Source of the DNA: a virus
Lineage: Duplodnaviria; Caudoviricetes
Reading direction: 5' to 3' (one strand)
DNA: 64,000 nt
IMG/VR virus record: IMGVR_UViG_2706796482_000001
Location: 69,532 to 133,531 of that record
A program made the position numbers and the translations under genes. This document shows, in pieces, positions 3,278 through 25,824 of the stretch (the stretch's first letter is position 1; every line of letters starts with the position of its first letter). The notes under the pieces were generated by a model, which was not told the DNA's origin, did no database searches, and saw only the letters and a list, made by a program, of their open reading frames with translations.

Positions 3278-3361
3278 TGTGGGTCGAAGAGTTCAGTCGG
3301 TTATCTAATTAATGGAATCAGAAGCTCGTAAAGGGCACCCGACACTCACACCATATCCACA
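3278..3361 (+). ncRNA. Y RNA-like gene 1 (minimal module)
   Basis: 5' TGTGGGTCGAAGAGT..GTCGGTTATC pairs with 3' CCGAC-ACTC-ACACCATATCCACA; GNCGAAG motif; starts at the promoter TSS. Confidence 0.7.
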
Positions 3362-4927: not shown

Positions 4928-5004
4928 GCCCCATAGGATAATGACTAATCCGCCTGTACGTGGAGTACAGGTAATACCGGTTAAATTCCGGACTAGGGGC
5001 TCCA
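4928..5004 (+). ncRNA. Atypical tRNA-like RNA (extended anticodon stem, encoded CCA)
   Basis: GCCCC/GGGGC+TCCA; D arm GGAT/ATCC; CCTGTAC-GTGGA-GTACAGG; T arm CCGG-TTAAATT-CCGG. Confidence 0.65.
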
Positions 5005-5008
5005 AACT

Positions 5009-5161
5009 TTTGGGTCGATTGAGACACGGTTATCTTACACAATGGATACTAGGTTCGATTCCTAGGGGTGCCGTAAAAAGCGCTCTGTAAAGTCATCTCA
5101 GATGTGTGTGGTAGGATGACATAAGGTACTACACTCTCTCCGTTCTCGCCACTTACCTAAA
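5009..5161 (+). ncRNA. Y RNA-like gene 2 (T-arm plus pseudoknot module)
   Basis: TTTGGGTCGATTGAGACACGGTTATC ... CCGT-TCTC-GCCACTT-ACCTAAA; internal CTAGG-TTCGATT-CCTAG. Confidence 0.6.
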
Positions 5162-5705: not shown

Positions 5706-5782
5706 TGGGGCGTATACCCTCACTCTGATAAAGTGTAGAAAGGTTAATCGGTTACATGTGGGTTCAATTCCCACCGTCCCAA
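5706..5782 (+). ncRNA. Topologically rearranged tRNA-Ile(GAT)-like RNA
   Basis: Acceptor TGGGGCG/CGTCCCA, CACT-CTGATAA-AGTG, T arm GTGGG-TTCAATT-CCCAC; no D arm in the normal position. Confidence 0.65.
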
Positions 5783-7988: not shown

Positions 7989-8133
7989 TGTGGGTCGAAG
8001 ATAATTGTTTATCTTCAAATCAGCTTGTTGGGGGTTCGAATCCTCCCTGGGGACTTCATTGTCCTCGGTAGCTCAATGGCAGAGCGGCTGACATTGCCCA
8101 AATGGGCTAGACGATTGTCACACCATATCCACA
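7989..8133 (+). ncRNA. yrlA: Y RNA, YrlA type (circularly permuted tRNA-like domain)
   Basis: Putative Ro-binding stem TGTGGGTCGAAGATAATTGTTTA/TAGACGATTGTC-ACACCATATCCACA enclosing T arm (GGGGG-TTCGAAT-CCTCC), closed acceptor stem (CTGGGGAC/GTCCTCGG), then D arm (GCTC-AATGGCA-GAGC). Confidence 0.85.
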
Positions 8134-12664: not shown

Positions 12665-12667
12665 CTT

Positions 12668-12778
12668 TGTGGGTCGAAAGAGTAAGTCGGTTATCTTCCT
12701 TTGAATAAGAAACAGATAGGTTCGAATCCTATGTAGCCCAAGGCACGGGCGACTCCGACTCTCACCAATATATCCACA
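12668..12778 (+). ncRNA. Y RNA-like gene 4 (T-arm module)
   Basis: TGTGGGTCGAAAGAGTAAGTCGGTTATC ... CCGACT-CTC-ACCAATATATCCACA; internal ATAGG-TTCGAAT-CCTAT; about 0.8 kb upstream of Ro60. Confidence 0.78.
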
Positions 12779-13550: not shown

Positions 13551-15200
13551 ATGTCTAACGCACTTAACAACGCAGCTAAGGGTCTCAACAAGACTCCTCA
13601 GACTGTCAAGGCCAAGAGTGGTCAGGTCAAGAACAACGCTGGTGGATTCGTCTTCCAGGTTTCTGACCAGGCTCGCCTTGAGCGATTCCTGATTCTCGGT
13701 GTAGATGGCGGTACGTATTACGTCAAGGAGACCGACCACGCACGTAGTAACGTGCAGTTCCTCAACGACATGATTGAGCGAGACGAAGCCTCTGTACTGA
13801 ACACCATTGTGGACGTGTCCGTCAATGGTCGTGCATACAAGCAGTCTCCAGTCCTGTTCGCGCTAGCCTCTGTCATTGTCCACGGACGTGACAAGCAGTC
13901 CGTCAAGGCTGTCTTCAATCGTGTTGTTCGTACAGGCACGCACCTCTATGAGGTCGTGAACTACCTGAACACCATGGGTGGATGGGGTCGTGCAAAGCGC
14001 GAAATCGTTGCTGGATGGTTCGACAAGGATGCTGATAAGCTGGCTTACCAGATGGTCAAGTACCGTTCTCGTAAGTTTGGCGACCAGACCTGGACCATGC
14101 GTGACGTAATGCGTAAGGCTCACCCACGAGATGTTAACACGTCTGCGGCTGACTTTGCTCTCGGCAAGGAGCACGACGCTATTGATGACCTTCGGGTTAT
14201 TGAGGGCTTCAAGCTCATGCAGAAGGCTCAGTCTGTCGAGGATGTTCACAGCGTTCTCCGTGAGTATGAGATGCTTTCATGGGAGACAATCCCAACTCAG
14301 TTCCTCAAGGACGTGAGTGTATGGAAGCGCATCTTCGCCAATGGTCAGCTTCGTGGTCAGGCTCTTGTCCGAAACATCACTCGTCTCGCACGAATTGGTG
14401 CTTTCCAGGACATGCGCTTCGCTGCCGCGTATGCAGGACAGCTTACGAACCAGGAAATGATTGTACAGACTCGTCTGCACCCAATCAACTTCCTGAACGC
14501 ATCTGTCGTGTACAACGACGGTCAGATGAAGCGAGTCAATGACCGCTGGGGCTTTGAATCAGAGCAGCGAGTCAAGGATTGGACAACCGAAAGTGTCATT
14601 GTTGACGCTCTCAATGAGGGCTTCCACAAGGCATTCAAGGCTGTCGAGCCTGCTGGCAAGCGTACGATGCTGGCTCTGGACGTATCAGGTTCTATGAGTG
14701 CAAAGGCTAACGGTCTCGACCTTAGCTGTGCTCAGGTTTCTGCTGCAATGTCTATGGCCATCGCTCGTACCGAGCCTGCTCACATCATCCGAGGATTCAC
14801 GTCTTCTGGTGGTGGCTACAGCTACAGGAGCAGCGGTCTGACTGACCTCGGTATCAGCGCTCGTACTGACCTTGCTACGGCAATGCGCAGTGTGCAGCGT
14901 CACAACTGGGGTGGCACAGATTGTTCACTCCCAATGCGTTGGGCTCTTGAGAACAGGGTAGAAGTTGACACCTTTGTGGTTATCACTGATAACGACACAT
15001 GGGCTGGCGACATTCACCCATTCCAGGCGCTCAAGGAGTACCGTAAGAAGACTGGAATTCCAGCTCGTCTGGCAGTTCTGGGAGTTCAGGCAACTGAATT
15101 CACCATTGCTGACCCAAGCGATGCGGGAATGATGGACTTCGTTGGATTTGACAGCAATGCGCCTCGTGCGCTGGCTGACTTCTCCGCTGGTCGCATCTGA
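13551..15200 (+). CDS. rsr: Ro60/TROVE RNA-binding protein (Rsr ortholog)
   Basis: QVKNNAGGFVF..RLERFLILGVDGGTYY, KYRSR..W..RD..RKAHP, vWA LDVSGSM, GGTDCSLPM, ITDNDTW, GFDS. Confidence 0.96.
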   Translation: MSNALNNAAKGLNKTPQTVKAKSGQVKNNAGGFVFQVSDQARLERFLILGVDGGTYYVKETDHARSNVQFLNDMIERDEASVLNTIVDVSVNGRAYKQSPVLFALASVIVHGRDKQSVKAVFNRVVRTGTHLYEVVNYLNTMGGWGRAKREIVAGWFDKDADKLAYQMVKYRSRKFGDQTWTMRDVMRKAHPRDVNTSAADFALGKEHDAIDDLRVIEGFKLMQKAQSVEDVHSVLREYEMLSWETIPTQFLKDVSVWKRIFANGQLRGQALVRNITRLARIGAFQDMRFAAAYAGQLTNQEMIVQTRLHPINFLNASVVYNDGQMKRVNDRWGFESEQRVKDWTTESVIVDALNEGFHKAFKAVEPAGKRTMLALDVSGSMSAKANGLDLSCAQVSAAMSMAIARTEPAHIIRGFTSSGGGYSYRSSGLTDLGISARTDLATAMRSVQRHNWGGTDCSLPMRWALENRVEVDTFVVITDNDTWAGDIHPFQALKEYRKKTGIPARLAVLGVQATEFTIADPSDAGMMDFVGFDSNAPRALADFSAGRI

Positions 15201-17862: not shown

Positions 17863-17866
17863 CGCT

Positions 17867-17964
17867 GGTCAGTTGAAAGTCCTGAAAAGTTGGTCACTCA
17901 GTAAGGATTGTTTCATATGCAGGTCTAACCAGCCTCCGTACCGGGTTCGAATCCGGACTGACCG
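17867..17964 (+). ncRNA. Atypical tRNA-like RNA (CAT loop, enlarged D and variable regions)
   Basis: GGTCAGT/ACTGACC acceptor, T arm CCGG-GTTCGAAT-CCGG, TTGT-TTCATAT-GCAG. Confidence 0.6.
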
Positions 17965-17973
17965 TTGACTTAT

Positions 17974-18050
17974 GGGTTTGACGGGTGTAAGGTTACTGAA
18001 AGCCGACAATGGACCGGTAACTGTAGAGGGTTCGATTCCCTCCAAATCCA
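17974..18050 (+). ncRNA. D-armless tRNA-like RNA
   Basis: GGGTTTG/CAAATCC acceptor, GGTTACTG/CGGTAACT stem, GAGGG-TTCGATT-CCCTC. Confidence 0.62.
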
Positions 18051-18056
18051 CTTTAT

Positions 18057-18131
18057 GCGCCGTTGACGGGAACTGGCATACCTAGTTGACTTAGAATCAA
18101 CTGTTTGGGAGTTCGACTCTCCCACGGCGTA
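18057..18131 (+). tRNA. tRNA-Leu(TAG), short variable region
   Basis: Loop CTTAGAA. Confidence 0.85.
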
Positions 18132-18290
18132 CTCCATAACTAAAAAGACAAGGAACGAAATGTCTGACGAAAAGTGTCCGAGTGGCGGAATGCACGACTG
18201 GATGATATGGTCAGGGAAGTTCAGATGTCGCAAGTGTGGTACAACAAGTAAGGGTTGACAGCATCAGCCCGGCAACGTAAAGTTGCTTAT

Positions 18291-18364
18291 GCGTCGGTAG
18301 CCCAATGGCAGGAGGCACCAGTCTTAGGAACTGGACAGTGTGAGTTCGAGTCTCACTCGGCGTA
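18291..18364 (+). tRNA. tRNA-Leu(TAG), short variable region
   Basis: Loop CTTAGGA. Confidence 0.87.
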
Positions 18365-18417
18365 CTTTGGTAGTAAACGCGATGCTACCGAATGCACACA
18401 GGGTCGCTCCCGGTGTG

Positions 18418-18543
18418 AGGAGTATAGTTTAGTGGCAAAACAGTGAAATGCGCTGTCGAAAGAGGGAAGTTGCCGAGCTAAAGGCTGGTTCGCTTGAGTA
18501 GATATCAGAGTAGCAATCGTCGGTTCGATTCCGACTGCTCCGC
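18418..18543 (+). ncRNA. tRNA scaffold with about 70-nt insert replacing the anticodon arm
   Basis: GGAGTA/TGCTCC acceptor, D arm GTTT-AGTGGCA-AAAC, T arm GTCGG-TTCGATT-CCGAC; insert contains GTCGAAAGAG. Confidence 0.7.
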
Positions 18544-18686
18544 TAGCCTGCGCTAGATGCAGGAATGTAAGTCGGCAAGGGAGTGTACAATCCTAAACCG
18601 CATTTCTCAACGGCCTTGCAAGGGGCATCAAAGCAACAAGGTGAGAGCGTCTTGGTTGTTCCGGCTCATAACAGGAACCTCCCCAA

Positions 18687-18757
18687 TCCGTAGTGGTGTA
18701 GTGGTAACATACTTCCTTGCCAAGGAAGCGTTGCGAGTTCGATTCTCGTCTACGGGA
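18687..18757 (+). tRNA. tRNA-Gly(GCC)
   Basis: Cloverleaf, loop TTGCCAA. Confidence 0.9.
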
Positions 18758-18834
18758 CTCAATCAATGGGGTCTGGCGATGTAGGGCAGACTTAAACGAC
18801 AGTTCAATAATAAGACCGTGCCCATTGATTTTAT

Positions 18835-25752: not shown

Positions 25753-25824
25753 GCATGTAAGCCAGGGATAAGCTAGGCGGGCCTGTAAAGCCCTACCTCG
25801 ATGGTTCGAATCCGTCTACATGCA
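25753..25824 (+). tRNA. tRNA-Tyr(GTA), atypical D arm and short variable region
   Basis: Loop CTGTAAA; acceptor GCATGTA/TACATGC. Confidence 0.75.

What the first reader, a model, noticed from the sequence alone, without database searches (positions are those of the whole stretch)
18418..18543. tRNA scaffold whose anticodon arm is replaced by an insert containing the Ro-binding motif
The acceptor, D and T arms are in normal order. The roughly 70-nt insert contains GTCGAAAGAG (identical to Y-like gene 4) and a 3' ATATC, bracketed by GCT/AGC. Inference: a non-permuted fifth Y RNA, the topological inverse of YrlA. An unexplained tRNA intron is the alternative.
Basis: partly seen in the sequence, partly recalled or inferred. 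Interest (0 to 1): 0.75.

Follow-up and report, generated by a model that had tools for sequence, protein, structure and literature searches.

The report
tRNA-shaped phage RNA with Ro60-type motif
A Streptomyces phage carries, inside its tRNA gene array and 3.2 kb downstream of its own Ro60 gene, a conserved RNA that folds like a tRNA but has a long conserved arm with the GUCGAA word of Ro60-binding Y RNAs where the anticodon arm should be. It is most likely an undescribed, non-permuted kind of Y RNA rather than a decoding or intron-bearing tRNA.

Summary
Window 18418-18543 scores as a tRNA in Rfam (33.1 bits), with about 70 nt in place of the 17-nt anticodon arm. ARAGORN misses it. It occurs in 80 Streptomyces phage records (BE-type, Boydwoodruffvirinae) and is unannotated in 77 of them.

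Across 25 distinct orthologues the acceptor, D and T stems, the Levitt 15:48 pair and the arm helices are kept: 98.4% of cells are paired and 7 pairs show double changes. The arm core is as conserved as the T loop (27 of 36 positions invariant). The distal hairpin varies freely (16-37 nt).

The intron reading fails. ARAGORN -i gives eight different isotypes among the orthologues. The Coruscantvirus orthologue has no insert at all, only a 6-bp stem capped by the 6-nt loop GUCGAA.

That hexamer fits the published Rsr/Ro60 motif GNCGAAN0-1G and is shared with the window's Y RNAs. The phage encodes Ro60 at 13551-15200. Ro60 binding is inferred, not shown.

The motif lies on the strand leaving the tRNA body, so this is not a plain circular permutation of YrlA. 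The Rfam YrlA model does not match it.

This scan noted the same element before in related phages (e1-4039282), with the same reading. I found no paper describing it. Verdict: new variant of a known kind.

The parts
18366..18394 (+). Leader hairpin H1 (stem 18367-18373 with 18385-18391) followed by the invariant linker AAUGCA (18391-18396)
   Evidence: The stem sequence differs between lineages but always pairs (UUGGUAG/CUACCGA, UUGACUG/CAGUCAA, UUGAGAAUA/UAUUCUCAA and others). It is also present in Coruscant and Mandalore.
18395..18417 (+). Leader hairpin H2: 9-bp stem with a near-invariant loop (UCGCU; UCGCC in Mildred21). Its last base is G-1 of the tRNA-like body.
   Evidence: The stem covaries between lineages (CACACAGGG, CAUAUCAGG, CAUAUAGGG, CAUAUUGGG with matching 3' strands). 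It is retained in front of the Coruscant orthologue.
18418..18442 (+). Acceptor 5' strand (18418-18424), U8 A9, D arm (18427-18441), position 26
   Evidence: Rfam tRNA alignment. Pairs 5-68, 6-67 and 7-66 covary. The A1.G72 mismatch and G-1/C73 are invariant. G15:C48 in the window corresponds to A15:U48 in the others.
18443..18460 (+). Arm core, 5' strand: G27 Y28 GAA, then AUGCR, then MUG, then Y CGAA. It contains GUCGAA at 18455-18460.
   Evidence: 14 of 18 positions are invariant in 24 orthologues. Y40-R covaries U-A to C-G, and Y28-R covaries C-G/U-G/U-A.
18461..18496 (+). Distal closing hairpin, free in sequence and length
   Evidence: It is 16-37 nt long, always folds as a hairpin, has no invariant column, and its length differences are not multiples of three.
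18497..18514 (+). Arm core, 3' strand: AGUAG, R, UAW bulge, CAG, AGUAG, C
   Evidence: 13 of 18 positions are invariant. Each AGUA faces a GAA and is flanked by a Watson-Crick pair, which is the layout of a sarcin-ricin/loop-E (S-turn) motif. That reading is inference from sequence.
18515..18543 (+). V loop (18515-18518), T arm (18519-18535), acceptor 3' strand (18536-18542), C73 (18543). No CCA is encoded.
   Evidence: Pair 51:63 of the T stem covaries (C-G, G-C, A-U).
13551..15200 (+). Phage Ro60/Rsr gene, the presumed protein partner
   Evidence: Pfam TROVE E=9.4e-32 and vWA_Ro60 E=6.4e-59. Whole-genome scan. Annotated 'Ro-like RNA binding protein' in relatives.

Best explanation
The gene makes a non-decoding tRNA mimic that belongs to the phage's Ro60/Y-RNA system.

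Shown here:
- The RNA keeps a full tRNA body: 7-bp acceptor stem with open ends, D arm, T arm and the tertiary 15:48 pair.
- The anticodon arm is replaced by a sequence-constrained arm that displays the hexamer GUCGAA.
- The tip of that arm is a spacer hairpin with no sequence constraint.

Inferred:
- The phage Ro60 protein docks on the GUCGAA-bearing internal loop, as it is thought to do on the GNCGAA handle of YrlA and of the four Y RNAs of this window.
- The tRNA body then acts as the effector module. It would recruit or compete for tRNA-recognising factors such as RNase P, the CCA-adding enzyme, modification enzymes or PNPase.
- Because the ends lie at the acceptor stem and neighbouring tRNA genes also lack an encoded CCA, the RNA is probably cut out and CCA-tailed like a tRNA. 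YrlA, with its closed acceptor loop, cannot be.
- Relative to YrlA the docking motif faces the opposite way with respect to the tRNA body.
For: - Real RNA gene: 80 phage records and soil metagenome contigs. On 25 orthologues, 98.4% of cells are paired, 7 pairs have double changes, and 0 of 500 shuffles reach the observed value.
- tRNA fold: Rfam tRNA 33.1 bits. The Levitt pair is G:C in the window and A:U in the 24 other orthologues (a single lineage supports the change).
- Sequence-specific arm: 27 of 36 core positions are invariant, against none in the distal hairpin.
- Orthologue with the same leader (blastn 81-87% over about 48 nt) and the same G-1/A1.G72 acceptor end. In Coruscant and Mandalore it has a remodelled arm that still presents exactly GUCGAA, now as a 6-nt hairpin loop. 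By my estimate a random 6-nt loop would match some hexamer of the core by chance in under 1% of cases.
- GYCGAA fits the published motif GNCGAAN0-1G (PMC4201824). CGAA point mutants weakened binding to a phage Ro60 three- to four-fold (PMC12135203).
- Ro60 gene 3.2 kb upstream on the same strand. YrlA-like RNA at 8002-8120 (39.8 bits). GGGUCGAA handles at 3283, 7994 and 12673.
Against: - No binding data exist.
- The motif is short and common: 53 matches in the window.
- In this arm each CGAA faces AGUAG and could simply be half of an S-turn motif. That partner strand is absent from YrlA and from the window's Y-RNA handles.
- The motif polarity is inverted relative to YrlA.
- Rfam's YrlA and Y_RNA models do not match.
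- All phages of this family carry Ro60, so co-occurrence cannot discriminate.
- No counterpart was found near Ro60 in Stigma, Beuffert or mycobacteriophage Rizal.
- Both flanks are conserved structured RNA, so the mature ends are unknown.
Confidence: 0.6

Rival explanations
1. It is a tRNA mimic whose arm, with two tandem S-turn (GAA/AGUA) modules, binds a partner other than Ro60. Candidates are a translation or ribosome factor, a tRNA-processing enzyme, or a host tRNA-targeting defence nuclease for which it acts as a decoy. Under this reading the match to the Ro60 motif is incidental.
For: Both CGAA/UGAA words face AGUAG and are flanked by Watson-Crick pairs exactly as a sarcin-ricin/loop-E motif requires. 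That partner strand is not part of known Y-RNA handles. The phage also has another tRNA mimic without CGAA at 31395-31531, and relatives encode RNA ligase and polynucleotide kinase.
Against: The Coruscant orthologue drops the AGUAG partner and the S-turn layout yet keeps GUCGAA precisely. The same hexamer heads the window's Y RNAs. A 6-nt GUCGAA loop resembles no anticodon loop, which argues against a decoy for anticodon nucleases.
Confidence: 0.24
2. The tRNA-like body is only one domain of a longer RNA (about 320 nt, 18366-18686) made of leader hairpins, tRNA-like domain and a 3' multi-helix domain. That RNA acts as one unit, and the acceptor ends are never freed.
For: H2 abuts position 1. 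The 3' domain's outer helix starts 2 nt after C73. Both flanks are conserved and covary: 18 of 31 pairs in the 3' domain have compensatory changes.
Against: In Coruscant the orthologue keeps the leader but is followed after 7 nt by tRNA-Gly, so the 3' domain is separable. The 7-bp acceptor stem, the tRNA elbow and the discriminator are kept as in RNase P substrates.
Confidence: 0.1
3. It is an intron-containing tRNA that is spliced to a decoding tRNA, as two GenBank records imply (tRNA-Thr in Sushi23, tRNA-Tyr in Mildred21).
For: Searches show these annotations. ARAGORN with the intron option finds 'a tRNA' in 21 of 25 orthologues.
Against: The predicted isotype differs among orthologues (Ser, Phe, Thr, Arg, His, Cys, Asn, Pro), with different intron positions. 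No conserved 5-bp stem with a 7-nt loop can be formed from the flanks. The 'intron' is the most conserved part of the RNA. At 50-70 nt it is far too short for a group I intron. The insert-free Coruscant orthologue has a 6-nt loop and cannot decode either.
Confidence: 0.03
4. It is a decaying tRNA pseudogene without function.
For: ARAGORN does not call it, and most annotators left it out.
Against: There are compensatory changes in four helices and in a tertiary pair. The arm core is invariant across genera and in metagenome contigs.
Confidence: 0.02

Closest known systems
YrlA (Y RNA-like A; Rfam RF02553; Chen et al. 2014, PMC4201824; structure in Wang et al. 2018, bioRxiv 10.1101/312249)
   Same: Both are encoded near a Ro60/Rsr gene on the same strand, and YrlA also occurs in actinophages. 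Both have a tRNA-like D arm, T arm and a covarying Levitt pair. Both have a GNCGAA-type word on the helix that takes the place of the anticodon stem. Both have an invariant UA on the strand that runs into the T arm (the UAW bulge here, the YUAY kink in YrlA). Both have the word CGA(A)AUGC.
   Different: YrlA is circularly permuted (T arm, closed acceptor-like hairpin, D arm), has no free CCA end, and its termini lie in the Ro60 handle. This RNA has the normal tRNA order with open acceptor ends, and the arm is closed by a hairpin. The motif sits on the opposite strand relative to the tRNA body. The partner strand is AGUAG. The Rfam model does not match it.
The four Y RNAs of this same phage (3278-3355, about 5003-5120, 7989-8133, 12667-12775)
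   Same: They share the hexamer GUCGAA (GTCGAAAGAG is identical at 12673). In both, an asymmetric internal loop precedes the lower helix with AUAU/AUAA on the 3' strand. They lie in the same tRNA array and on the same strand.
   Different: Their handle is formed by the RNA termini (UGUGG...CCACA). It has ACACCAUAU opposite the motif, and the downstream word GGUUAUCU is absent here.
Yrl1/Yrl2 of Thermus phage phiLo with phiRo60 (PMC12135203)
   Same: These are phage-encoded Ro60 partners recognised through a CGAA word displayed in a bulge. Yrl1 has two CGAA sites, as most orthologues of this arm have.
   Different: They have no tRNA-like body. Binding was shown experimentally there and has not been shown here.
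Canonical tRNA (Rfam RF00005) and tmRNA tRNA-like domain
   Same: Acceptor stem with open ends, T arm, elbow, and no encoded CCA, like the neighbouring phage tRNAs. As in tmRNA, the anticodon arm is replaced by a long helix.
   Different: There is no anticodon loop. Unlike tmRNA, it has a full D stem, no reading frame and no pseudoknots.

Membership tests
YrlA / bacterial Y RNA | Encoded close to a Ro60/Rsr (TROVE) gene and on the same strand | tested here: met
   Ro60 is at 13551-15200 (+), and the element starts 3.2 kb downstream on +.
YrlA / bacterial Y RNA | tRNA-like D and T arms with tRNA tertiary pairs (Levitt pair covaries) | tested here: met
YrlA / bacterial Y RNA | Permuted order (T arm, closed acceptor-like hairpin, D arm), with termini in the Ro60-binding stem | tested here: not met
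   The order is normal (acceptor, D, arm, T, acceptor) and the acceptor is open. The YrlA consensus structure is shown.
YrlA / bacterial Y RNA | GNCGAAN0-1G near the 5' end, on the strand leading into the V loop and T arm | tested here: inconclusive
   GYCGAA is invariant, and the following N0-1G is present in most orthologues. However, it lies on the strand leaving the D arm, so its polarity is inverted.
YrlA / bacterial Y RNA | Match to covariance model RF02553 | tested here: not met
   There is no YrlA match over 18366-18560 even at E up to 10. The model does find 8002-8120 at 39.8 bits.
YrlA / bacterial Y RNA | Physical binding to Ro60/Rsr | not testable with these tools
   This needs EMSA or RIP.
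Decoding tRNA | Match to RF00005 at or above the gathering score | tested here: met
   33.1 bits against 29.
Decoding tRNA | 5-bp anticodon stem with a 7-nt loop and an anticodon conserved among orthologues | tested here: not met
Intron-containing tRNA | An intron of a known self-splicing or enzyme-cut class, with exons that join to a consistent anticodon arm | tested here: not met
   The insert is 50-70 nt and is the most conserved part. ARAGORN -i gives eight different isotypes. The orthologue without the insert still has no anticodon loop.

The most novel reading that the evidence does not exclude
The RNA is matured like a tRNA (RNase P cut at or next to the invariant G-1, CCA addition). 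It may even be aminoacylated: the invariant G-1/C73 pair recalls the histidine identity set. All the while it would carry Ro60 on its arm. That would make it a Y RNA with a live acceptor end that couples Ro60 to the tRNA maturation, charging or EF-Tu machinery during infection. It would also be a living intermediate between tRNAs and Y RNAs.
Probability: 0.1. Interest if true: 0.85.

Novelty: new variant of a known kind. Interest (0 to 1): 0.6.

Why it matters
Y RNAs are thought to derive from tRNAs, but the described bacterial ones (YrlA) are permuted and lack a free acceptor end. An unpermuted, open-ended tRNA body carrying the Ro60 word would be the missing architectural link. It would also raise the possibility of a Y RNA that tRNA enzymes can process, tail or charge.

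It also matters for annotation. The gene is absent from 77 of 80 GenBank records. It is called tRNA-Thr, tRNA-Tyr or a hypothetical protein in the other three.

The paired natural variants give ready-made constructs for testing what Ro60 actually recognises. One is the long arm with two CGAA-type sites. The other is the bare 6-nt GUCGAA loop in Coruscant.

Tried and rejected
- Thermodynamic folding alone is uninformative (z = -0.83 and -0.24).
- RNAalifold's small hairpin G27-C37 is broken in the GCAAUG lineages.
- ATATCAG also occurs in H2 of some lineages, which suggested a switch between H2 and the arm. The window's H2 lacks the complement, so I rejected this.
- A pseudoknot GUGAG/CUCAU in the 3' domain has no covariation support.
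- K-turn reading of the UAW bulge: no tandem G.A pairs follow the bulge, so I rejected it.
- Resemblance of the arm words to 5S rRNA (AGUGAAA, CCGAAC, AGAGUAG) is from memory. The words are not colinear, so I treat this as shared loop-E vocabulary only.
- The genome contigs pattern scan gave one chance hit (a Blastocatellia MAG with no tRNA features).
- Model R1 found only ordinary tRNAs in Stigma, Beuffert and Rizal.
- 'tRNA-OTHER' of Mildred21 and 'tRNA-???' of Enygma are unrelated oddities.
- Literature searches found no description of this RNA.

Full report
**Source and context**

The window is the right half of a 133.5-kb Streptomyces phage genome with terminal repeats. Its nearest relatives are phages Targaryen and Evy, at 97.5% identity over the region. 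These are BE-type phages of Stanwilliamsviridae, Boydwoodruffvirinae.

The window holds 42 tRNA genes and a tmRNA by ARAGORN. It also holds a Ro60/Rsr gene at 13551-15200 (TROVE E=9.4e-32, vWA_Ro60 E=6.4e-59). A YrlA-like RNA lies at 8002-8120 (RF02553, 39.8 bits, below the gathering score of 69). A YrlA beside the Ro60 gene of mycobacteriophage Rizal scores similarly (36.1 bits), so phage YrlAs generally fall below the Rfam threshold.

**The observation**

Rfam's tRNA model matches 18418-18543 from end to end at 33.1 bits, with 70 nt in place of the 17-nt anticodon arm. ARAGORN in default mode does not call it.

GTCGAAAGAG occurs at 18455 and 12673 only. Neither this word nor the shorter motif is statistically unusual on its own.

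**It is a real RNA gene**

- blastn finds the element in 80 phage records, all Streptomyces phages. It is unannotated in 77, called tRNA-Thr in Sushi23 and tRNA-Tyr in Mildred21, and overlapped by a 'hypothetical protein' in Bmoc.
- Pattern scans add soil metagenome and IMG/VR contigs.
- One bacterial contig matched by chance only.

On 25 distinct orthologues (alignment A2) I named a structure and counted pairs. 98.4% of cells form standard pairs, against 35-53% when partners are slid by 1-3 columns. Seven pairs carry changes on both sides, and 0 of 500 shuffles reach the observed covariation.

- Acceptor pairs 5-68, 6-67 and 7-66 covary, as does pair 51:63 of the T stem.
- The tertiary Levitt pair is G15:C48 in the window and A15:U48 in the 24 others, so only one lineage supports this change. 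This is the same kind of evidence used for YrlA.
- A1.G72 is an invariant mismatch. G-1 and C73 are invariant.

**Anatomy of the arm**

From G27 the 5' strand reads G-Y-GAA, AUGCR, MUG, Y-CGAA (18443-18460). A hairpin of 16-37 nt follows. It differs in sequence and length between lineages but always folds (18461-18496). The 3' strand reads AGUAG, R, UAW, CAG, AGUAG, C (18497-18514).

- G27-C, Y28-R (C-G, U-G, U-A), U38-A, G39-C, Y40-R (U-A to C-G) and C41-G are kept.
- The core has 27 of 36 invariant positions (mean entropy 0.15-0.17). It is as conserved as the T loop and more conserved than the covarying tRNA stems. The distal hairpin has none (entropy 1.35). The core is therefore read by sequence, and the tip is a spacer.
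- Each GAA faces an AGUA and is flanked by a Watson-Crick pair. This is the layout of a sarcin-ricin/loop-E motif, so the arm looks like two tandem S-turn modules separated by a 5-nt bulge (AUGCR) and a 3-nt bulge (UAW). This reading is inference from sequence.

**Not an intron**

- ARAGORN with the intron option assigns the 25 orthologues to Ser, Phe, Thr, Arg, His, Cys, Asn or Pro, with shifting intron positions, and finds nothing in four of them.
- The flanks cannot form a conserved anticodon stem-loop.
- The 'intron' is the best-conserved part of the RNA.
- Most telling is the orthologue in Coruscant and Mandalore (Coruscantvirus). A covariance model of the element (R1) picks Coruscant's 'tRNA-OTHER' as best hit (44.4 bits).
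  - It has the same leader (H1, AAUGCA, H2 with loop UCGCU; blastn 81-87% to the BE phages).
  - It has the same G-1/A1.G72 acceptor end; C73 is kept in Coruscant and is U in Mandalore.
  - It has A15:U48.
  - It is only 73 nt long. Its anticodon arm is a 6-bp stem closed by the 6-nt loop GUCGAA. It cannot decode either.

**Link to Ro60**

- Chen et al. defined GNCGAAN0-1G as the conserved word of YrlA/YrlB that overlaps Rsr-protected bases of D. radiodurans Yrn1 (PMC4201824).
- For Thermus phage phiLo, single changes in CGAA weakened Ro60 binding three- to four-fold (PMC12135203).
- Site B of the arm (G39-Y-C-G-A-A) fits the word in every orthologue.
- The same hexamer is all that remains of the arm's sequence in Coruscant, and it heads the window's Y RNAs (GGGUCGAA at 3283, 7994, 12673).
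- Site A (G-Y-GAA-AUGC) resembles the YrlA consensus CGA-AUGC, which is likewise followed by a 5-nt unpaired AUGCu.
- The invariant UA of the UAW bulge lies on the strand entering the T arm, as does the conserved UA kink of YrlA.

These resemblances are leads, not proof.

**Where it differs from YrlA**

In YrlA the order is 5' handle strand (with GNCGAA), V, T arm, closed acceptor-like hairpin, D arm, 3' handle strand. Re-cutting that circle at the acceptor loop would place GNCGAA after the closing loop, running towards the T arm. Here it lies before the loop, running away from the D arm. The docking word is therefore inverted relative to the tRNA body.

The strand opposite the motif (AGUAG) is not found in YrlA or in the window's handles, which have ACACCAUAU there. 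Hence this RNA may work like a Y RNA, but it is not a member of the YrlA family as defined.

**Distribution**

I found the element only in Boydwoodruffvirinae (Samistivirus, Karimacvirus, Coruscantvirus). R1 found only ordinary tRNAs in 25-kb regions around Ro60 of Stigma and Beuffert (Loccivirinae) and in 41 kb of mycobacteriophage Rizal. All these phages carry Ro60, so co-occurrence has no discriminating power.

**Flanks**

The whole spacer 18366-18686 is conserved, ORF-free, structured RNA. The leader hairpins H1 and H2 covary and travel with the tRNA-like body into Coruscant. H2 ends at G-1.

The 3' domain (18546-18686) has 18 of 31 predicted pairs with compensatory changes. It is absent after the Coruscant orthologue, which is followed by tRNA-Gly after 7 nt. 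It is therefore a separable RNA. The mature ends of the tRNA-like RNA are unknown.

**Earlier notes of this scan**

The same element was noted in a related phage with the same reading (e1-4039282). tRNA-shaped RNAs with a Ro60 helix were noted beside Ro60 genes of other phages. I formed my reading before looking at these notes, and they are not independent evidence.

New here:
- the Coruscant short form;
- the inverted polarity argument;
- the two S-turn-like modules;
- the conservation profile;
- the isotype scatter under ARAGORN -i.

**Literature**

Full-text searches returned YrlA papers and genome announcements only. None describes an unpermuted tRNA-shaped Y RNA.

**Verdict**

| Item | Result |
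|---|---|
| Observation | confirmed |
| Best explanation | tRNA-shaped, Ro60-associated Y-RNA variant, confidence 0.6 |
| Novelty | new variant of a known kind |

Noticed in passing
window 18366-18417: Two covarying leader hairpins lie directly upstream: H1, and H2 with loop UCGCU. They are joined by the invariant word AAUGCA. They are conserved with the tRNA-like body even in Coruscant and Mandalore. The word AAUGC recurs as the 5-nt bulge in the arm and in the YrlA consensus. Their function is unknown.
   Followed up: partly
window 18546-18686: A 3' multi-helix RNA domain starts 2 nt after C73. 18 of 31 predicted pairs show compensatory changes. No Rfam match, and no ORF other than a mechanical one (18557-18784) that overlaps tRNA-Gly. 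It is separable from the tRNA-like gene, because it is absent after the Coruscant orthologue.
   Followed up: partly
window 17864-18056: The spacer between tRNA-Val and tRNA-Leu holds two orphan T arms. An 80-nt piece (17974-18053) aligns to both ends of the tmRNA model with the middle 296 positions missing (33 bits). It looks like a free-standing tmRNA-type tRNA-like domain.
   Followed up: no
window 18057-18132 and 18291-18365: There are two tRNA-Leu(UAG) genes of 75-76 nt, meaning they have short variable loops. Bacterial tRNA-Leu is normally class II with a long variable arm.
   Followed up: no
window 26021-26097: The phage tRNA-His appears to have two U.U oppositions in its acceptor stem and A (not C) at position 73, opposite the extra G-1.
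   Followed up: no
window 5706-5782, 25753-25824, 25925-25995: Rfam calls tRNAs here (30.8-42.2 bits) that ARAGORN does not report.
   Followed up: no
L018:943-1016 (Enygma) and L001:1024-1098 (Mildred21): Further odd 'tRNA-???' or 'tRNA-OTHER' genes in relatives. Enygma's has a 6-nt loop CUGUAA. They are unrelated to the element studied.
   Followed up: partly
L008:650-772 (Bmoc gp142); MF358542 gene 139; MF155946 gene 144: Public annotations of this locus disagree: hypothetical protein, tRNA-Thr and tRNA-Tyr. All three look wrong.
   Followed up: yes
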